64,000 bases of DNA, taken from assembly GCF_013122565.1 (NCBI RefSeq), contig NZ_CP053258.1. One strand, given 5' to 3'. This document shows, piece after piece, positions 17,034-60,104 of this stretch. The translations under genes were made by a program, and so were the position numbers. A model generated the notes under the pieces. The model was not told the origin of the DNA. It did not search any database and worked only from the letters and a program-made list of their open reading frames with translations. Within the stretch, counting starts at the first letter, position 1; every line of letters starts with the position of its first letter. This DNA is from Escherichia coli (GTDB taxonomy: Bacteria; Pseudomonadota; Gammaproteobacteria; Enterobacterales; Enterobacteriaceae).

Positions 17034-17095
17034 CCTAAAGAATCAAGACGATCCGGTACGCGTGATTTTCTTTTCACATTAATCTGGTCAATAAC

Positions 17096-17124
17096 CTTGA
17101 ATAATTGAGGGATGACCTCATTTA
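17096..17124 (+). promoter_or_regulatory. sigma32 heat-shock promoter of clpB
   Basis: CTTGAAT (17096-17102) and CCTCATTTA (17116-17124), 13-bp spacer, about 40 bp upstream of clpB ATG. Confidence 0.5.
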
Positions 17125-17162
17125 ATCTCCAGTAGCAACTTTGATCCGTTATGGGAGGAGTT

Positions 17163-19736
17163 ATGCGTCTGGATCGTCTTACTAATAAATTCCAGCTTGC
17201 TCTTGCCGATGCCCAATCACTTGCACTCGGGCACGACAACCAATTCATCGAACCACTTCATTTAATGAGCGCCCTGCTGAATCAGGAAGGGGGTTCGGTT
17301 AGTCCTTTGTTAACATCCGCTGGCATTAATGCTGGCCAGTTGCGCACAGATATCAATCAGGCATTAAATCGTTTACCGCAGGTTGAAGGTACTGGTGGTG
17401 ATGTCCAGCCATCACAAGATCTGGTGCGCGTTCTTAATCTTTGCGACAAGCTGGCGCAAAAACGTGGTGATAACTTTATCTCGTCAGAACTGTTCGTTCT
17501 GGCGGCACTTGAGTCTCGCGGCACGCTGGCCGACATCCTGAAAGCAGCAGGGGCGACCACCGCCAACATTACTCAAGCGATTGAACAAATGCGTGGAGGT
17601 GAAAGCGTGAACGATCAAGGTGCTGAAGACCAACGTCAGGCTTTGAAAAAATATACCATCGACCTTACCGAACGAGCCGAACAAGGCAAACTCGATCCGG
17701 TGATTGGTCGTGATGAAGAAATTCGCCGTACCATTCAGGTGCTGCAACGTCGTACTAAAAATAACCCGGTACTGATTGGTGAACCCGGCGTCGGTAAAAC
17801 TGCCATCGTTGAAGGTCTGGCGCAGCGTATTATCAACGGCGAAGTGCCGGAAGGGTTGAAAGGCCGCCGGGTACTGGCGCTGGATATGGGCGCGCTGGTG
17901 GCTGGGGCGAAATATCGCGGTGAGTTTGAAGAACGTTTAAAAGGCGTGCTTAACGATCTTGCCAAACAGGAAGGCAACGTCATCCTGTTTATCGACGAAT
18001 TACATACCATGGTCGGCGCGGGTAAAGCCGATGGCGCAATGGACGCCGGAAACATGCTGAAACCGGCGCTGGCGCGTGGTGAATTGCACTGCGTAGGTGC
18101 CACGACGCTTGACGAATATCGCCAGTACATCGAAAAAGATGCTGCGCTGGAACGTCGTTTCCAGAAAGTGTTTGTTGCCGAGCCTTCTGTTGAAGATACC
18201 ATTGCGATTCTGCGTGGCCTGAAAGAACGTTACGAATTGCACCACCATGTGCAAATTACTGACCCGGCAATTGTTGCAGCGGCGACGTTGTCTCATCGCT
18301 ACATTGCTGACCGTCAGCTGCCGGATAAAGCCATCGACCTGATCGATGAAGCAGCATCCAGCATTCGTATGCAGATTGACTCAAAACCAGAAGAACTCGA
18401 CCGACTCGATCGTCGTATCATCCAGCTCAAACTGGAACAACAGGCGTTAATGAAAGAGTCTGATGAAGCCAGTAAAAAACGCCTGGATATGCTCAACGAA
18501 GAACTGAGCGACAAAGAACGTCAGTACTCCGAGTTAGAAGAAGAGTGGAAAGCAGAGAAGGCATCGCTTTCTGGTACGCAGACCATTAAAGCGGAACTGG
18601 AACAGGCGAAAATCGCTATTGAACAGGCTCGCCGTGTGGGTGACCTGGCGCGGATGTCTGAACTGCAATACGGCAAAATCCCGGAACTGGAAAAGCAACT
18701 GGAAGCCGCAACGCAGCTCGAAGGCAAAACTATGCGTCTGTTGCGTAATAAAGTGACCGACGCCGAAATTGCTGAAGTGCTGGCGCGTTGGACGGGGATT
18801 CCGGTTTCTCGCATGATGGAAAGCGAGCGCGAAAAACTGCTGCGTATGGAGCAAGAACTGCACCATCGCGTAATTGGTCAGAACGAAGCGGTTGATGCGG
18901 TATCTAACGCTATTCGTCGTAGCCGTGCGGGGCTGGCGGATCCAAATCGCCCGATTGGTTCATTCCTGTTCCTCGGCCCAACTGGTGTGGGGAAAACAGA
19001 GCTTTGTAAGGCGCTGGCGAACTTTATGTTTGATAGCGACGAGGCGATGGTCCGTATCGATATGTCCGAGTTTATGGAGAAACACTCGGTGTCTCGTCTG
19101 GTTGGTGCGCCTCCGGGATATGTCGGTTATGAAGAAGGTGGCTACCTGACCGAAGCTGTGCGTCGTCGTCCGTATTCCGTCATCCTGCTGGATGAAGTGG
19201 AAAAAGCGCATCCGGATGTCTTCAATATTCTGTTGCAGGTACTGGATGATGGGCGTCTGACTGACGGGCAGGGGAGAACGGTCGACTTCCGTAATACGGT
19301 TGTCATTATGACCTCTAACCTCGGTTCCGATCTGATTCAGGAACGCTTCGGTGAACTGGATTATGCGCACATGAAAGAGCTGGTGCTCGGTGTGGTTAGC
19401 CATAACTTCCGTCCGGAATTCATTAACCGTATCGATGAAGTGGTGGTCTTCCATCCGCTGGGTGAACAGCACATTGCGTCGATTGCGCAGATTCAATTGA
19501 AACGTCTGTATAAACGTCTGGAAGAACGTGGTTATGAAATCCACATTTCTGACGAGGCGCTGAAACTGCTGAGCGAGAACGGTTACGATCCGGTCTATGG
19601 TGCACGTCCTCTGAAACGTGCAATTCAGCAGCAGATCGAAAACCCGCTGGCACAGCAAATACTGTCTGGTGAATTGGTTCCGGGTAAAGTGATTCGCCTG
19701 GAAGTTAATGAAGACCGGATTGTCGCCGTCCAGTAA
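17163..19736 (+). CDS. clpB: AAA+ disaggregase chaperone ClpB
   Basis: ORF track 17151..19736; ATG at 17163 after GGGAGGAG gives [19 protein letters not shown]..., 857 aa; two Walker A sites ([16 protein letters not shown]). Confidence 0.96.
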
Positions 19737-25240: not shown

Positions 25241-25268
25241 ATGCCTGATGCGACGCTGCGCGTCTTAT
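25241..25268. repeat. REP-like element (partial palindromic unit)
   Basis: ATGCCTGATGCGACGCTGCGCGTCTTAT resembles REP consensus. Confidence 0.3.
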
Positions 25269-35830: not shown

Positions 35831-35932
35831 TTGTTATCTCCTCTGTTTTGGTAGACAGTACCCGACACGGAACATTTAAAAAAATGAATGTTTTTACATT
35901 CTAAATTCGATATTTTCGATAGGTTTGGGGTT

Positions 35933-36814
35933 ATGGATCTGCGCCGTTTTATTACGCTTAAAACCGTGGTGGAAGAGGGTTCCTTTTTGCGTGCTTCGCA
36001 AAAATTGTGCTGCACACAATCGACGGTGACTTTTCATATTCAGCAGCTTGAGCAGGAGTTCTCGGTACAGTTATTTGAGAAAATTGGCCGACGGATGTGC
36101 CTCACTCGCGAAGGTAAAAAGCTGCTGCCGCACATTTATGAACTCACCAGAGTGATGGATACCCTTCGTGAGGCTGCCAAAAAAGAGTCGGATCCGGACG
36201 GGGAGCTGCGCGTTGTTTCGGGCGAAACGTTGCTCTCTTACCGAATGCCGCAGGTGTTGCAGCGTTTTCGGCAACGCGCACCAAAAGTACGTTTATCGTT
36301 GCAGTCACTGAACTGTTACGTGATCCGTGATGCGCTACTGAATGATGAGGCCGATGTCGGAGTTTTTTATCGCGTAGGGAATGATGATGCTCTGAACCGA
36401 CGAGAGTTGGGTGAACAATCGCTGGTGCTGGTGGCTTCACCGCAAATTGCAGATGTCGATTTTACTGAGCCGGGAAGACATAACGCCTGTAGTTTTATAA
36501 TCAATGAACCGCAATGTGTCTTCCGGCAGATATTTGAGAGCACGCTGCGCCAGCGACGGATCACGGTGGAAAACACCATTGAGCTTATAAGTATCGAAAG
36601 CATCAAGCGTTGTGTCGCGGCGAATATCGGGGTCAGTTACTTACCGCGTTTTGCGGTGGTAAAAGAGTTGGAGTGCGGAGAATTAATTGAATTGCCTTTT
36701 GGCGAACAGTCGCAGACCATTACGGCAATGTGCGCACACCATGCTGGAAAAGCGGTTAGCCCGGCGATGCACACTTTTATTCAGTGTGTTGAAGAGAGTT
36801 TTGTGGCTGGATAA
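35933..36814 (+). CDS. yfiE: LysR-family transcriptional regulator YfiE
   Basis: ORF track 35888..36814; ATG at 35933 gives MDLRRFITLKTVVEEGSFLRASQKL..., 293 aa; N-terminal HTH. Confidence 0.85.
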   Translation: MDLRRFITLKTVVEEGSFLRASQKLCCTQSTVTFHIQQLEQEFSVQLFEKIGRRMCLTREGKKLLPHIYELTRVMDTLREAAKKESDPDGELRVVSGETLLSYRMPQVLQRFRQRAPKVRLSLQSLNCYVIRDALLNDEADVGVFYRVGNDDALNRRELGEQSLVLVASPQIADVDFTEPGRHNACSFIINEPQCVFRQIFESTLRQRRITVENTIELISIESIKRCVAANIGVSYLPRFAVVKELECGELIELPFGEQSQTITAMCAHHAGKAVSPAMHTFIQCVEESFVAG

Positions 36815-36871
36815 AAATAATGTCGGGATTAAACCCGGCATTTAACTTGTCGACAAAGTGCGCTTTATTCA

Positions 36872-36971
36872 TGCCGGATGCGGCGTGAACGCCTTATCCG
36901 GCCTACAAGATCGTGCAAATTCAATATATTGCATGAGCCACGTAGGCCTGATAAGCGTAGCGCATCAGGCA
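36872..36971. repeat. BIME: two inverted REP palindromic units
   Basis: TGCCGGATGCGGCGTGAACGCCTTATCCGGCCTACA and inverted GTAGGCCTGATAAGCGTAGCGCATCAGGCA. Confidence 0.7.
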
Positions 36972-37022
36972 GTTTTGCGTTTGCCAGCACTTTTAATACC
37001 AGGCTTAAACCCGGCATTGAGA

Positions 37023-38357
37023 TTACTCTTCTGTCGTTTGCGGTGGCACGCCCGTTCCGCTTGGTTTACGGCGCTTACCAATATTTTTGGTGTCGCGATG
37101 GCGTTTTTTCACCCGCGGCTTCTCTTTCTCTTTAGCTTTTTTCTTCTCGGCGCGTTTTGCCAGTACTTTCTTCGATGGCTTGCCGGTCTGCTTCTCGCTT
37201 GGCGCACGCGTTTTCGGGCGTAACTCATCAATTACGCGAGCTTTAATTGGCTCTTCAATATAGCGACCAACTTTGCCCAGCAGCAGATGGTCATGGGCTT
37301 CTACCAGCGAAATTGCGGTGCCTTTACGACCGGCGCGCGCGGTACGTCCGATACGGTGCAAATAAGTATCGCCACTGCGCGGCATATCGAAGTTAAAGAC
37401 GTGGCTGACGTCAGGAATGTCGATACCGCGCGCGGCAACATCGGTTGCAACCAGTACGTTTACGCGACCTTCGGTCAAACGCTTGATCGCTTCGTTACGC
37501 TTGCCTTGTACCATCTCACCTTCGAGATAGCAGTTGTTGATGCCCGCTTCGCGCAGCCAGTTTGCCAGCTCATGCACACGTTCACGCTTACGCACAAACA
37601 CAATTGAGCGGGTCGCTTCCGGCTGTTTTAACAGATGCACCAGCAACGCGGTTTTATGCTCAAGATCATCGGCACGGTAATACCACTGATGAATTTTTTT
37701 GCGCTCACGGGTGGACGGATTGGCAGAAACTTCCACCGGATCTTCCAGCAGACGCTCGGCAAAGTCCTGAATCGCATCGCCTTCCAGCGTTGCCGAAAAG
37801 AGCAGGGTCTGTTTACGCCAGCGCGTTTCGCCAGCAATATGCTCGATATCCTGAGCGAAGCCCATATCCAGCATACGGTCTGCTTCGTCGAGGATCAGCG
37901 TTTCAACCGCGCGGCAATCGAAGTTCTCTTCTTTTATGTATTGCAGCAGACGTCCGGTCGTGGCGACCACGATGTCCTGATTTTCGCTGAACACTTCCGC
38001 GTGGTTCATATAGGCTACGCCGCCGGTGATGGTGGCGATATCCAGATGCGTATGTTTCGCCAGTTCGCGGGCATGATCGGCTACCTGCATCGCCAGCTCG
38101 CGAGTTGGGGTGAGGATCAAAATACGCGGCGGACCGGATTTCTTACGTGGGAAATCGAGCAGGTGCTGCAACGCTGGCAGCAGATACGCCGCCGTTTTAC
38201 CGGTGCCTGTCGGCGCAGAACCGAGTACATCACGGCCATCGAGCGCAGGCGGAATGGCGGCAGCCTGAATGGCGGTCGGGCGAGTGAAACCTTTATCCTG
38301 GAGGGCTTCCAGCAGGCTTTCGTCGAGTTCAAGTTCGGAAAAAGTCGTTACAGTCAT
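37023..38357 (-). CDS. srmB: DEAD-box ATP-dependent RNA helicase SrmB
   Basis: 444-aa ORF with [17 protein letters not shown] and HRIGRTAR motifs and basic C-terminal tail. Confidence 0.95.
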
Positions 38358-42499: not shown

Positions 42500-43455
42500 T
42501 GAAGCAACTTTGGTTTGCCATGTCATTAGTGACAGGTAGCCTGTTATTCTCTGCTAACGCCTCGGCCACTCCCGCGTCCGGGGCGTTATTACAGCAGATG
42601 AACCTGGCCAGTCAGTCACTGAATTACGAGCTGTCATTCATCAGCATCAATAAACAGGGTGTTGAGTCTCTGCGTTATCGACATGCACGCCTCGATAACC
42701 GTCCTCTTGCACAATTGTTGCAAATGGATGGCCCGCGCCGGGAAGTGGTACAGCGCGGCAATGAAATCAGCTATTTTGAACCGGGACTTGAACCGTTCAC
42801 GCTTAATGGCGATTACATTGTTGATTCTCTGCCATCGCTCATCTATACCGATTTCAAACGCCTTTCTCCTTACTACGACTTTATCTCCGTCGGGCGCACG
42901 CGTATTGCTGATCGTCTTTGCGAAGTTATTCGCGTGGTTGCCCGAGATGGTACACGCTACAGCTACATCGTGTGGATGGACACCGAATCGAAATTACCGA
43001 TGAGGGTTGATCTCCTTGATCGCGATGGTGAAACGCTGGAACAATTTCGCGTGATTGCTTTTAATGTCAATCAGGATATCAGCAGCAGTATGCAGACGCT
43101 GGCGAAGGCAAATTTGCCGCCGTTGCTTTCTGTTCCTGTAGGTGAAAAAGCTAAATTCAGCTGGACGCCAACCTGGTTGCCACAGGGTTTTAGCGAAGTT
43201 TCCAGTAGTCGACGTCCGCTACCGACGATGGACAACATGCCTATCGAATCACGTCTCTATTCCGACGGATTATTCAGCTTCTCGGTAAACGTTAACCGCG
43301 CTACGCCATCGAGCACCGATCAGATGTTGCGCACCGGACGCAGAACCGTCAGTACAAGCGTACGTGATAACGCCGAAATCACCATTGTCGGTGAACTGCC
43401 GCCGCAAACGGCGAAACGCATTGCCGAGAATATTAAGTTCGGGGCAGCGCAATGA
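42499..43455 (+). CDS. rseB: sigma-E regulatory protein RseB
   Basis: 318-aa ORF with signal peptide MKQLWFAMSLVTGSLLFSANASA; start overlaps rseA stop. Confidence 0.95.
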   Translation: MKQLWFAMSLVTGSLLFSANASATPASGALLQQMNLASQSLNYELSFISINKQGVESLRYRHARLDNRPLAQLLQMDGPRREVVQRGNEISYFEPGLEPFTLNGDYIVDSLPSLIYTDFKRLSPYYDFISVGRTRIADRLCEVIRVVARDGTRYSYIVWMDTESKLPMRVDLLDRDGETLEQFRVIAFNVNQDISSSMQTLAKANLPPLLSVPVGEKAKFSWTPTWLPQGFSEVSSSRRPLPTMDNMPIESRLYSDGLFSFSVNVNRATPSSTDQMLRTGRRTVSTSVRDNAEITIVGELPPQTAKRIAENIKFGAAQ

Positions 43456-43931
43456 TCAAAGAGTGGGCTACCGTCGTCTCCTGGCAAAACGGGCAGGCGC
43501 TGGTCAGTTGTGATGTTAAAGCCTCATGCAGCAGCTGCGCTTCACGCGCCGGTTGCGGTAGCCGCGTGTTGAATAAACTTGGCCCGCAAACCACGCATAC
43601 CATTGTCGTACCCTGTGATGAGCCGTTAGTGCCGGGGCAAAAAGTGGAATTGGGGATCGCCGAAGGCAGCCTGCTTAGCTCCGCATTACTGGTTTATATG
43701 TCGCCGCTGGTGGGATTATTCCTCATCGCTTCGCTATTTCAGCTACTCTTTGCTTCTGACGTCGCAGCATTATGTGGTGCTGTCCTCGGCGGTATTAGCG
43801 GGTTCCTGATTGCGCGTGGCTACTCGCGTAAGTTTGCTGCCCGGGCAGAATGGCAACCGATCATCTTAAGCGTGGCATTGCCGCCTGGCCTTGTGCGATT
43901 TGAAACATCTTCGGAAGACGCGAGCCAGTGA
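43452..43931 (+). CDS. rseC: sigma-E regulatory protein RseC
   Basis: 159-aa ORF MIKEWATVVSWQNGQALVSCDVKASCSSC...; overlaps rseB stop. Confidence 0.93.
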   Translation: MIKEWATVVSWQNGQALVSCDVKASCSSCASRAGCGSRVLNKLGPQTTHTIVVPCDEPLVPGQKVELGIAEGSLLSSALLVYMSPLVGLFLIASLFQLLFASDVAALCGAVLGGISGFLIARGYSRKFAARAEWQPIILSVALPPGLVRFETSSEDASQ

Positions 43932-44128
43932 TTTCACTGGCTTTGTTGCATTTTGCATAACAAATGCGAGGACGTTTCCAGATACCACAATCCATACGGT
44001 ATGAACATTTCCTCGCCTCAATGTTGTAGTGTAGAATGCGGCGTTTCTATTAATACAGACGTTAAGCTCAGAACAGCGACTTCTAAAAGCCTGGTTAACC
44101 GGGCATTAAGGCACAATAATCATACTTT

Positions 44129-45928
<1,800 letters not shown>

Positions 45929-46970: not shown

Positions 46971-47062
46971 TGAGATAAATCTCCCGTGGCTAACGACATC
47001 CCCCGTCGTTGTGTATAGAATATTCCCCCGAAGTTTAAGGTTGGCACCTCCAGGTTGCCACG

Positions 47063-47156
47063 GCACACGAAACAGCGTTGGTCCCCATATACCGGTAAAC
47101 TGAAACTGCAGCGAAGCAGTTAGCAGAACCATGTATATCAGGTCTGTTTCGTGTGC
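47063..47156 (+). promoter_or_regulatory. rnc 5' leader stem-loop (candidate RNase III autoregulatory processing site)
   Basis: GCACACGAAACAG (47063-47075) pairs with CTGTTTCGTGTGC (47144-47156), a 13-bp long-range stem enclosing about 68 nt, just upstream of rnc ATG at 47190. Confidence 0.5.
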
Positions 47157-47159
47157 TGA

Positions 47160-48772
<1,613 letters not shown>

Positions 48773-50654: not shown

Positions 50655-50730
50655 TAAAGTAAAACCCCCGAACTGGTAAGGAACGGGGGTTTTACTTTAT
50701 TTTGTGCAGCACGCACCCTCAATGAGGATA
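50655..50730 (-). ncRNA. ohsC: candidate OhsC antitoxin sRNA (antisense regulator of shoB); boundaries approximate
   Basis: Minus-strand RNA from about 50725 to the terminator at 50661-50693 would carry the complement of 50704-50725, which is a near-copy of 50951-50972 in the shoB 5' UTR (19/22 identical; two differences become G-U pairs). Candidate -10 CATAAT (plus 50731-50736) and -35 TTGTAA (plus 50755-50760) on minus strand. Confidence 0.45.
50661..50699. terminator. bidirectional rho-independent terminator (acpS operon on plus strand; likely also ohsC on minus strand)
   Basis: AAAACCCCCG-13-nt loop-CGGGGGTTTT, flanked by T-runs on both strands. Confidence 0.6.
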
Positions 50731-59587: not shown

Positions 59588-59610
59588 GTCGTCAGCCCAT
59601 TGGTTTTGCA

Positions 59611-59641
59611 GCCCGGATGAGGCATTCACGCCGCATCCGGC
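59611..59641. repeat. REP palindromic unit
   Basis: GCCCGGATGAGGCATTCACGCCGCATCCGGC, an imperfect palindrome typical of REP, just after purL stop. Confidence 0.6.
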
Positions 59642-59663
59642 ATTAAGCACCAACCACTATCAT

Positions 59664-59920: not shown

Positions 59921-60104
59921 AGTGGCTCATTCACCGACTTATGTCAGCCCCTTCGGGACGTGCTACATAAAATTCGAATGACGCACAACAAGGTGCCTGC
60001 CGTCCAACTTCTGATATCAGCGTAGCTATATCAACCATCGGGCGAAACGTCGAGTTAGGCACCGCCTTATTCCATAACAAAGCCGGGTAATTCCCGGCTT
60101 TGTT
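59921..60104 (+). ncRNA. glmY: small RNA GlmY
   Basis: Predicted start about 12 nt after sigma54 -12 GC; ends at strong terminator ACAAAGCCGGG-TAATT-CCCGGCTTTGT (60077-60103) followed by TGTATCT; about 184 nt. 5' and 3' ends approximate. Confidence 0.7.

What the first reader, a model, noticed from the sequence alone, without database searches (positions are those of the whole stretch)
36872..36971. BIME (paired inverted REP units) between yfiE and srmB; single REP after purL
Two REP palindromic units in inverted orientation separated by about 34 bp form a classic BIME in the 208-bp gap between convergent yfiE and srmB; a single REP follows purL (59611-59641) and a REP-like half follows the rrnG terminator (25241-25268). 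These are typical of E. coli intergenic regions, not mobile DNA.
Basis: partly seen in the sequence, partly recalled or inferred. Interest (0 to 1): 0.15.

Follow-up and report, generated by a model that had tools for sequence, protein, structure and literature searches.

The report
BIME-1 repeat inserted at a terminator
This is an ordinary, already-described E. coli intergenic repeat (a BIME-1: two inverted REP hairpins around an IHF-type site), but it is an insertion that about half of E. coli genomes lack, and it duplicated the terminator hairpin it landed on.

Summary
Two perfect REP units lie at 36872-36906 (+, y type) and 36942-36971 (-, z1 type), separated by a 35-bp linker, in the 208-bp gap between convergent yfiE and srmB. 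They are the only full REP-consensus matches in the 64 kb.

The element is specifically a BIME-1 (RIB/RIP class). It carries the conserved L linker with an IHF-type site and conserved outer flanks, so the full element is about 36843-36993.

"Not mobile DNA" is not supported:
- About 2,450 of 5,426 complete E. coli genomes, plus E. albertii and Citrobacter, have an "empty" site with one terminator hairpin.
- The window has hairpin-BIME-hairpin, a 176-bp insertion with a 24/25-nt duplication.
- One Escherichia lineage has two tandem units.
- Some strains carry IS1397 or IS621 inside the REPs.

The same hairpin-length flank duplication occurs at 8 of 20 independent BIME-1 sites, and empty alleles confirm it at 5 loci. 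I found no description of it in the papers I could read, but the original 1990s BIME papers were not available.

The purL REP is a degenerate y unit and the rrnG one is a truncated z2-like unit.

Verdict: a known element, of modest interest because of the insertion footprint.

The parts
36818..36842 (.). Left copy of the duplicated terminator hairpin (TAATGTCGGGATTAAACCCGGCATT). It differs from the single ancestral copy by 2 substitutions.
   Evidence: Direct repeat D1. The empty allele has one copy, TAATGCCGGGCTTAAACCCGGCATT. That copy plus its T-run is scored as a srmB-strand terminator in the empty allele but not in the window.
36843..36871 (+). Conserved A-side outer flank of the BIME-1 (TAACTTGTCGACAAAGTGCGCTTTATTCA; family consensus TCAGATTGTTGACAAAGTGCGCTTTGTTCA).
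   Evidence: Conservation across 18 sites extends to 31 nt before the y REP head and then drops to background. Alignment with the fepA-entD and tsx-yajD copies.
36872..36906 (+). y-type REP / palindromic unit.
   Evidence: 0 mismatches to the REP consensus. In some strains IS1397 is inserted in its loop, with a 4-bp GAAC duplication at 36887-36890.
36907..36941 (+). L linker of the BIME-1, with an IHF-type site ATTCAATATATTG at 36919-36931 (12 of 13 matches to WATCAANNNNTTR).
   Evidence: Sequence. It matches Rfam ES036/CssrF at 49.9 bits, a model that also hits the linkers of other BIME-1 copies. Ton-Hoang 2012 describes the L linker as conserved and IHF-binding.
36942..36971 (-). z1-type (short) REP, inverted relative to the y unit.
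   Evidence: 0 mismatches. Identical to the short REP query GCCTGATGCGCTACGCTTATCAGGCCTACG used by Durrant 2024. It contains the IS621 target ATCAGGCCTAC, and IS621 sits at 36944/45 in some strains.
36972..36993 (+). Conserved B-side outer flank (GTTTTGCGTTTGCCAGCACTTT; family consensus ATTTTGCGTTTGTCATCAGTCT).
   Evidence: Conservation extends about 23 nt past the z1 head and then drops. The consensus ends form a 12/14 terminal inverted repeat.
36994..37018 (.). Right copy of the duplicated terminator hairpin (TAATACCAGGCTTAAACCCGGCATT).
   Evidence: Direct repeat D1, 176 nt from the left copy. Its two G-to-A changes leave G.U pairs in the srmB-sense RNA. K-12 carries a further C-to-T that restores an A-T pair.
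35888..36814 (+). yfiE (LysR-type regulator), the left convergent gene.
   Evidence: ORF; annotation.
37023..38357 (-). srmB (DEAD-box RNA helicase), the right convergent gene. Inferred from sequence (not measured): its 3' UTR would contain the BIME-1 in this allele.
   Evidence: ORF; annotation. 100% identity to the E. coli and E. albertii SrmB loci.
59608..59642 (-). Solitary, degenerate y-type REP between purL and glmY.
   Evidence: (35 bits).
25243..25268 (+). Truncated z2-like REP half downstream of rrfG (rrnG operon).
   Evidence: and the z2 sequence quoted.

Best explanation
The feature is the core of a BIME-1 element (also called RIB or RIP). This is a roughly 150-bp non-autonomous REP-derived repeat made of an A flank, a y REP, a 35-bp L linker with an IHF-type site, an inverted z1 REP and a B flank (window 36843-36993).

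Shown: it sits where related genomes have only a single terminator hairpin downstream of srmB. In this allele that hairpin is present on both sides of the element (36818-36842 and 36994-37018). The locus therefore looks like an insertion with a hairpin-length (24/25-bp) target duplication. The 176-bp unit occurs in 0, 1 or 2 copies across Escherichia.

Inferred: the element was inserted by a structure-directed reaction at the foot of the hairpin, most plausibly involving the REP-associated Y1 transposase (RAYT/TnpA-REP). Staggered breaks at the two feet of the extruded hairpin, followed by fill-in, would duplicate the hairpin. Later gain or loss of units would go through recombination or slippage between the hairpin repeats.

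Inferred from published REP/BIME work: at this site the linker binds and bends with IHF. The REP stem-loops become part of the srmB (and possibly yfiE) 3' UTR, where they act as partial terminators and barriers to 3' exonucleases. The T-run terminator copy now lies distal to the element.
For: Identity: both REPs are perfect consensus matches and are the only ones in 64 kb. There is a full-length match to a BIME-1 profile (161.9 bits, 36843-36992). Identity is 83-90% to the fepA-entD and tsx-yajD BIME-1 copies, flanks included. The published definition is y + z1 + conserved L linker with an IHF site.

Insertion: 4,971 of 5,426 genomes carry the locus and only 2,524 carry the filled form; the rest are 176 bp shorter. 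The empty allele has one perfect hairpin. E. albertii and two Citrobacter species are empty, Escherichia sp. MOD1-EC7003 has 1 unit and Escherichia sp. E1V33 has 2.1 tandem units of period 176. The family's conservation boundaries coincide within 1 nt with the segment between the repeats.

Generality: 7 of 18 metagenome-derived sites, plus 1 of 2 sites in an independent 250 kb of K-12, have abutting hairpin direct repeats. They score 10-18, against a null 99th percentile of 9. Empty alleles with a single hairpin were confirmed at tsx-yajD, mog-satP, rutG-ymdF and yqeA-yqeB. Of the 40 abutting flanks, 23 fold at -8 kcal/mol or better, against 0 of 40 controls (p = 7e-8).

Function context: the terminator is predicted only in the empty allele. 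The whole unit folds with z = -5.9 and -6.5 on the two strands.
Against: No transposition of a BIME has ever been demonstrated, and known Y1 (IS200/IS605) transposases make no target duplication, so the proposed enzymology is conjecture. 12 of 20 sites lack a two-sided duplication. At dacB-obgE the insertion abuts the hairpin without duplicating it. Loss of one copy is documented at one locus only (tsx-yajD). The distribution of filled and empty alleles across E. coli lineages is patchy, so repeated loss or recombination is also needed. IHF binding, transcript ends and mRNA stability were not measured here. The hairpin copies in the window are partly degenerate, so their present terminator activity is uncertain.
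Confidence: 0.85

Rival explanations
1. A static, host-owned regulatory REP pair: an ancient fixture of the srmB/yfiE 3' region that was never inserted. The 176-bp shorter alleles would then be simple deletions between the two hairpin repeats.
For: The direct repeats would make precise deletion easy. Earlier work called BIME-1 absence "excision" (Bachellier 1997 as summarised; the abstract itself is recalled from memory). REPs do have local regulatory roles (abstract).
Against: E. albertii and Citrobacter have the single-hairpin state. The single hairpin of empty E. coli alleles is a perfect palindrome that cannot be produced by one crossover between the window's two diverged copies. The same element with the same boundaries sits at at least 20 unrelated loci, each flanked by that locus's own hairpin.
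Confidence: 0.08
2. The linker encodes a small RNA gene (Rfam ES036/CssrF) and the REPs are its flanking structures.
For: The Rfam match at 36907-36949 scores 49.9 bits against a gathering score of 37.6. CssrF was detected by northern blot in Shigella.
Against: The 43-nt model is the repeated BIME-1 linker. It also hits the linkers at mog-satP, fepA-entD and rutG-ymdF. The original CssrF locus, dacB/yhbZ, holds a BIME-1 in K-12. No promoter-like or terminator-like site is found in 36700-37150. Any RNA here is more simply read-through of the srmB or yfiE 3' UTR.
Confidence: 0.03
3. The flanking hairpin repeats come from an independent local tandem duplication of the terminator, into which a BIME-1 later fell. 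They would not be a footprint of the insertion itself.
For: Tandem duplication at this locus does happen (the 2-unit allele).
Against: No allele with two hairpins and no BIME was seen. The same arrangement recurs at 8 of 20 sites with different hairpins, always abutting the element ends within 0-2 nt. That is very unlikely under independent events.
Confidence: 0.04

Closest known systems
BIME-1 / RIB / RIP elements of E. coli (Gilson 1991; Bachellier 1994, 1997; Boccard & Prentki 1993; Oppenheim 1993; summarised in Ton-Hoang 2012, PMC3333891)
   Same: y REP + conserved long L linker with an IHF-type site + inverted z1 REP. About 145-150 bp conserved, extragenic at 3' ends of genes, a single unit, and present or absent among isolates.
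   Different: Nothing at the level of the element itself. The hairpin-length duplication of the target terminator and the 2-unit tandem allele are features I did not find described in the papers I could read. BIME-1 are stated to "occur as single copies".
REPINs (REP doublets) and RAYT/TnpA-REP of Pseudomonas and enterobacteria (Bertels & Rainey; Nunvar 2010)
   Same: Two inverted REPs with a spacer, treated as the replicating unit. Non-autonomous, intergenic, often between convergent genes. The presumed mobilising enzyme is a Y1 HUH transposase.
   Different: REPIN descriptions give no target duplication, and IS200/IS605-type enzymes make none. Here a 20-28-bp structure-defined duplication is seen. 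Association of this copy with a RAYT gene was not tested.
Correia elements / bacterial MITEs
   Same: About 150 bp, terminal inverted repeats, a central IHF site, flanking target duplication, able to fold into a long stem-loop, intergenic (Delihas 2011).
   Different: MITE duplications are short and of fixed length (for example TA). Here the duplication equals the whole target hairpin and varies with its size. No cognate DDE transposase is known. Delihas states that REPs "do not display MITE signatures".
BIME-2 and atypical BIMEs
   Same: They are built from REP units, vary in copy number between strains and are targets of IS1397.
   Different: BIME-2 use z2 REPs with short S and s/l/r linkers, occur as tandem arrays and bind gyrase rather than IHF. 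The window's element has z1 and L.
Mobile elements that target terminator hairpins (class C group II introns; recalled from memory, not tested)
   Same: Insertion immediately 3' of an intrinsic-terminator stem-loop, recognised by structure rather than sequence.
   Different: Those insert through an RNA intermediate without duplicating the hairpin, and they encode or depend on a reverse transcriptase.

Membership tests
REP / palindromic unit | Match to the consensus GCCKGATGCGRCGY...RCGYCTTATCMGGCCTAC, an imperfect palindrome with a GTAG/CTAC tail | tested here: met
   Two hits with 0 mismatches at 36873-36906 (+) and 36942-36970 (-); 0.02 expected by chance.
BIME-1 (RIB/RIP) | One y and one z1 REP in inverted orientation | tested here: met
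   The y and short-z sequences are identical to published type sequences. The orientation is given by inverted-repeat pairs I1 and I3.
BIME-1 (RIB/RIP) | Long conserved L linker carrying an IHF consensus | tested here: met
   A 35-nt linker, conserved across 20 sites. ATTCAATATATTG at 36919-36931 matches WATCAANNNNTTR at 12 of 13 positions. The consensus is taken from established knowledge.
BIME-1 (RIB/RIP) | IHF actually binds the linker | not testable with these tools
   Needs a gel shift, footprinting or ChIP.
BIME-1 (RIB/RIP) | About 145-150 bp conserved as a unit, including outer flanks; extragenic, at the 3' end of transcription units | tested here: met
   nhmmer match to model positions 3-152 at 161.9 bits. 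Conservation profile. Location between the two stop codons.
BIME-1 (RIB/RIP) | Occurs as a single unit per locus | tested here: met
   One unit in the window (one search finds no tandem array). Escherichia sp. E1V33 has 2.1 units at the same locus, which is an exception to the published rule.
REPIN mobilised by RAYT | Evidence of replication to new sites, and dependence on a RAYT gene in the genome | tested here: inconclusive
   Insertion polymorphism was shown at 6 loci.
MITE | Terminal inverted repeats plus target-site duplication of fixed short length, and a cognate transposase | tested here: not met
   The consensus ends form a 12/14 TIR and a duplication is present. However, its length varies (20-28 bp) with the target hairpin, and no cognate transposase is known.
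Rfam RF02751 ES036 (CssrF) sRNA | Score above the gathering threshold and an independent transcription unit | tested here: inconclusive
   The score is met (49.9 against 37.6). The model equals the repeated BIME-1 linker, and no promoter-like site was found.
BIME-2 | z2 REPs with S and s/l/r linkers in tandem arrays | tested here: not met
   The second unit is the short z1 type and the linker is L.

The most novel reading that the evidence does not exclude
BIME-1 elements may be MITE-like mobile units (about 150 bp, 12/14 terminal inverted repeats, a central IHF bend site). On this reading they integrate at the foot of intrinsic-terminator hairpins, recognised by structure rather than sequence, and duplicate the entire hairpin. 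That would give a variable-length target duplication set by the size of the hairpin (20, 23, 24, 26 and 28 bp at five loci). I did not find this footprint reported for REP, BIME or REPIN elements. It would directly constrain the still-unknown insertion mechanism, pointing to staggered cleavage at the two feet of an extruded hairpin or cruciform. It would also explain why these elements sit at gene 3' ends and are lost precisely.
Probability: 0.3. Interest if true: 0.6.

Novelty: already known. Interest (0 to 1): 0.3.

Why it matters
As an object this is routine: one of the BIME-1 repeats of E. coli, sitting where such repeats usually sit. Three points make it more than an annotation item.

1. 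It is a segregating insertion. About half of complete E. coli genomes lack it, so the 3' ends of srmB and yfiE differ between strains. The T-run terminator copy is moved 176 nt away from srmB in the filled allele.

2. Its REPs are natural landing pads for IS1397 and for IS621, the bridge-RNA recombinase. Both are seen occupied at this very locus.

3. The filled and empty alleles here and at five other loci give a clean insertion footprint: a duplication of the whole target hairpin. How REP/BIME/REPIN elements insert is an open question, still called "not fully established" in a 2026 preprint. This footprint can be tested with a plasmid-borne terminator target.

Tried and rejected
- **K-12 REP annotation.** I looked for it in the RefSeq record, but the copy held lists only CDS and RNA features in this region.
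- **Tandem repeat and promoter/terminator scans.** Tandem Repeats Finder finds nothing in the window. The promoter/terminator scan finds nothing in 36700-37150.
- **sRNA reading.** The Rfam ES036 hit was followed up and rejected, because the model is the repeated linker. naRNA4 hits on the REPs are below threshold.
- **REP-like target hairpins.** I considered that the hairpin at yfiE-srmB and tsx-yajD (same stem, AATGCCGG../..CCGGCATT) marks a REP-like sequence-specific target. I rejected this because hairpins at other sites are unrelated in sequence.
- **Mobile unit = hairpin + BIME.** Rejected, because each locus's hairpin matches its own empty allele.
- **Empty allele from one crossover.** Rejected as the origin of the empty allele from the present filled allele, because the substitution pattern would need three exchanges.
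- **Loci that gave no test.** fruA-psuK has no simple empty allele. fepA-entD is fixed in E. coli.
- **Collection scans.** A viral-contig scan for z1 gave only 2 loci.
- **Unavailable papers.** Bachellier 1997 (PMC1207841) and Gilson 1991 (PMC333889) are not held, so whether the flank duplication was described before could not be checked.

Full report
**1. What is in the sequence**

The 208-bp gap between the stop codons of yfiE (+ strand, ends 36814) and srmB (- strand, ends 37023) contains two REP units:
- TGCCGGATGCGGCGTGAACGCCTTATCCGGCCTAC at 36872-36906
- the inverted unit GTAGGCCTGATAAGCGTAGCGCATCAGGCA at 36942-36971
- 35 nt between them

The repeat finder reports the corresponding inverted arms (I1, I2, I3). 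I scanned both strands of the 64 kb with the Stern REP consensus, allowing two mismatches per half. It returns exactly these two units, each with no mismatch. Fifty first-order Markov simulations of the window gave 0.02 hits per sequence. Gene identities come from RefSeq annotation of identical or near-identical loci.

**2. The two side claims**

- **After purL.** The minus strand at 59608-59642 reads TGCCGGATGCGGCGTGAATGCCTCATCCGGGCTGC. This is a y-type REP with four mismatches. It fails the strict scan but is picked up by a BIME-1 profile at 35 bits. K-12 annotation confirms purL and glmY on either side.
- **After rrfG.** Positions 25243-25268 carry GCCTGATGCGACGCTGCGCGTCTTAT. This is the 5' arm and centre of the long (z2-like) REP type, and the 3' arm and CTAC tail are missing.

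"Single REP" and "REP-like half" are fair descriptions.

**3. Which kind of BIME**

The first unit is the y type. The second is the short z type, identical to the REP query GCCTGATGCGCTACGCTTATCAGGCCTACG quoted by Durrant et al.. Ton-Hoang et al. define BIME-1 as y + z1 separated by a long, well-conserved L linker that frequently carries an IHF site, occurring as single copies. BIME-2 use z2 and short linkers in tandem arrays.

The linker here contains ATTCAATATATTG (36919-36931). That matches the IHF consensus WATCAANNNNTTR at 12 of 13 positions (the consensus is taken from established knowledge).

Similarity to other copies extends beyond the REPs. The fepA-entD copy is about 90% identical and the tsx-yajD copy about 83% identical, over about 150 bp. 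I built a profile from 25 copies. It matches the window from 36843 to 36992 at 161.9 bits.

Per-column conservation over 18 distinct sites runs from 31 nt before the y head (consensus TCAGATTGTTGACAAAGTGCGCTTTGTTCAT) to about 23 nt after the z1 head (AATTTTGCGTTTGTCATCAGTCT). It then falls to background. The element is therefore a complete BIME-1 (RIB/RIP class), about 36843-36993. Its consensus ends form a 12/14 terminal inverted repeat.

**4. The Rfam hit**

Rfam reports ES036 (CssrF) at 36907-36949, at 49.9 bits against a gathering score of 37.6. This 43-nt model is the BIME-1 linker plus the start of z1:
- It also hits the linkers at mog-satP, fepA-entD and rutG-ymdF.
- CssrF was originally mapped to dacB/yhbZ in Shigella, a locus that holds a BIME-1 in K-12.
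- No promoter-like site is found here.

I read the hit as a repeat fragment, not as evidence for an sRNA gene at this locus.

**5. The locus is an insertion polymorphism**

A 25-nt direct repeat brackets the element: TAATGTCGGGATTAAACCCGGCATT at 36818-36842 and TAATACCAGGCTTAAACCCGGCATT at 36994-37018, 176 nt apart.

Counts in 5,426 complete E. coli genomes:

| Query | Genomes covering at least 80% |
|---|---|
| 1,051-bp query across the locus | 4,971 |
| 281-bp "filled" query | 2,524 |

The remainder, about 2,450 genomes, match in two pieces spanning 875 instead of 1,051 bp. That is exactly 176 bp shorter.

Three such alleles, including O157:H7, read ...GATAAAAATAATGCCGGGCTTAAACCCGGCATTGAGATTAC.... 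They have one perfect hairpin, scored as a srmB-strand terminator with its T-run. Each of the window's two copies differs from that sequence at two positions. The pattern of differences (left, right, left, right) cannot be produced by a single crossover between them. The single hairpin therefore looks ancestral rather than a recent deletion product.

Outgroups agree:
- E. albertii, Citrobacter werkmanii and C. youngae have one hairpin next to yfiE.
- Escherichia sp. MOD1-EC7003 has hairpin-BIME-hairpin.
- Escherichia sp. E1V33 has hairpin-BIME-hairpin-BIME-hairpin (period 176, 2.1 copies, 97% identity), with all three hairpins identical.

The segment between the repeats coincides within 1 nt with the family's conservation boundaries. 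The simplest reading is a BIME-1 insertion that duplicated the 24-nt hairpin. Copy-number change through the repeats followed. Within E. coli the patchy distribution also requires later losses or recombination.

**6. Is the hairpin duplication a peculiarity of this locus?**

It is not. A metagenome scan with the linker core gave 31 BIME-1 copies at 18 distinct sites.

I aligned the 45 nt outside the A end with the 45 nt outside the B end at each site. Seven sites score 10-18. The null from 306 mismatched left/right pairings has mean 6.2, 99th percentile 9 and maximum 11. In all seven sites the repeats abut the element within 0-2 nt and are themselves stem-loops.

An independent 250 kb of K-12 contains two full copies:
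- yqeA-yqeB is flanked by a perfect 27/28-nt hairpin repeat.
- dacB-obgE has a hairpin on the A side only.

Empty alleles in E. coli genomes confirm a single hairpin at four more loci, and one locus shows insertion without duplication:

| Locus | Indel relative to filled allele | Hairpin duplicated? |
|---|---|---|
| mog-satP | 173 bp | yes |
| rutG-ymdF | 174 bp | yes |
| yqeA-yqeB | 180 bp | yes |
| tsx-yajD | 139 bp in the O157 allele | yes in a metagenome allele; the O157 allele has lost the B end and right copy |
| dacB-obgE | 146-152 bp | no; the element abuts the 3' foot of the hairpin |

Across the 20 sites:
- 23 of 40 abutting 30-nt flanks fold at -8 kcal/mol or better, against 0 of 40 control 30-mers taken 60-90 nt away (Mann-Whitney p = 7e-8).
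- 16 of 20 sites have at least one abutting hairpin.

The duplicated length follows the hairpin (20, 23, 24, 26 and 28 nt), and the hairpins are unrelated in sequence.

**7. How it most likely works**

Shown:
- the anatomy of the element
- the insertion polymorphism
- the hairpin duplication
- the recurrence of that duplication at other sites

Inferred:
- The target is recognised by structure.
- Breaks at the two feet of the extruded hairpin, one on each strand, followed by joining and fill-in, would duplicate exactly the hairpin.
- The enzyme is unknown. RAYT/TnpA-REP is the only candidate with REP-specific cleavage and strand-transfer activity. However, Y1 transposases are not known to make duplications, and no BIME transposition has been observed.
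- The central IHF site would fold a 150-bp duplex so that its two ends meet, as in Correia elements. This is an analogy, not a test.

At the RNA level, the hairpin next to srmB has lost its T-run, which now follows the distal copy. srmB transcripts should therefore run through the z1 and y stem-loops before the T-run copy. No canonical terminator is predicted in this allele. The whole unit is strongly structured, with z = -5.9 and -6.5 on the two strands.

Published work assigns REPs partial termination and protection from 3' decay. It also reports elevated expression of convergent gene pairs that have REPs between them (abstract). None of this was measured for this locus.

The substitutions in the two hairpin copies are wobble-compatible on the strand of the adjacent gene, and K-12 has one compensatory change. 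This hints that both copies are kept as RNA structures, but the sample is three or four changes.

**8. Other mobile elements at the locus**

- In strain AF46 an IS1397 sits in the loop of the y REP, with a 4-bp GAAC duplication at 36887-36890.
- In strain 2013C_3277 an IS621 sits at 36944/45, at the CT core of ATCAGGCCTAC on the minus strand.

Both match the published specificities of these elements.

**9. Comparison with what is known, and novelty**

The element is a textbook BIME-1, and every sequence-level defining feature is met. IHF binding cannot be tested here. BIME-1 presence/absence among isolates is published.

I did not find the hairpin-length duplication of the target terminator, or the two-unit allele, in the searchable literature:
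- Only five held papers mention "BIME-1".
- Delihas (2011) states that REPs lack MITE signatures.
- A 2026 preprint calls the insertion mechanism not fully established.

The primary 1990s papers are not held, so prior description cannot be excluded.

**10. Verdict**

The finding as given is real and correctly named, and it is already known. Its interpretation needs one correction: this is, or was, mobile DNA. Interest is modest overall. It is raised only by the insertion footprint, which would need a genome-wide census and an experiment to establish.

Noticed in passing
36818-36842 and 36994-37018; also L217:12400-12610, L211:370-570, L214:395-600, L186, L104, L121, L143, L185: BIME-1 copies at many unrelated loci are flanked on both sides by direct-repeat copies of the local terminator-like hairpin, abutting the element ends within 0-2 nt. 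This holds at 8 of 20 sites, and empty alleles with one hairpin were confirmed at 5 loci. The duplicated length tracks the size of the hairpin (20-28 nt).
   Followed up: yes
L012:3840-4216 (Escherichia sp. E1V33): The yfiE-srmB locus holds two tandem 176-bp units (hairpin + BIME-1; 97% identical), although BIME-1 are described as single-copy per locus.
   Followed up: partly
36887-36890 (L004) and 36944-36945 (L005): Some E. coli strains carry IS1397 in the loop of the y REP (4-bp GAAC duplication). Others carry IS621 at the CT core of ATCAGGCCTAC in the z1 tail, which is exactly the natural target of the bridge-RNA recombinase.
   Followed up: yes
36907-36949: Rfam family ES036 (CssrF sRNA) is in effect a model of the BIME-1 L linker. 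It also scores above its gathering threshold on the linkers at mog-satP, fepA-entD and rutG-ymdF.
   Followed up: yes
36794-36811 (last codons of yfiE): Filled and empty haplotypes differ at 4 of 21 nt just left of the hairpin, which changes the YfiE C-terminus. The window has ..SFVAG*, against ..CFLPG* in empty E. coli alleles and E. albertii. E1V33 shares VAG; MOD1-EC7003 keeps LPG. Substitutions also cluster next to the tsx-yajD insertion.
   Followed up: partly
36994-37018 vs L001 (K-12): The srmB-proximal hairpin copy has two G-to-A changes that remain G.U pairs in srmB-sense RNA. K-12 adds a C-to-T that restores an A-T pair. The yfiE-proximal copy has a C-to-T that is a U.G pair only in yfiE-sense RNA. 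This may mean the two copies have specialised, one for each gene, but it rests on very few changes.
   Followed up: partly
L215:2904-3006 (IMG/VR contig): A y-L-z1 core without the usual A and B flanks is bracketed by two similar hairpins (CCCTCTCCGTGAGGAGAGGG and CCTTCTCCATGTGGAGAGGG). This may be a variant of the same insertion pattern in another host.
   Followed up: no
L218:30429-30579 (K-12 dacB-obgE): This BIME-1 abuts the 3' foot of the dacB terminator hairpin, and its B end lies 2 nt from the obgE stop codon. The empty allele has TTTTGCT where the filled allele has CT plus the element, so there is no hairpin duplication here.
   Followed up: partly
43416-44247 (-), 47030-47244 (+), 50656-50720 (-), 17044-17182 (+), 59921-60068 (+): Other Rfam matches in the window: AsrC antisense RNA, rncO, OhsC, RyfD and GlmY. 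All are ordinary for this E. coli region.
   Followed up: no
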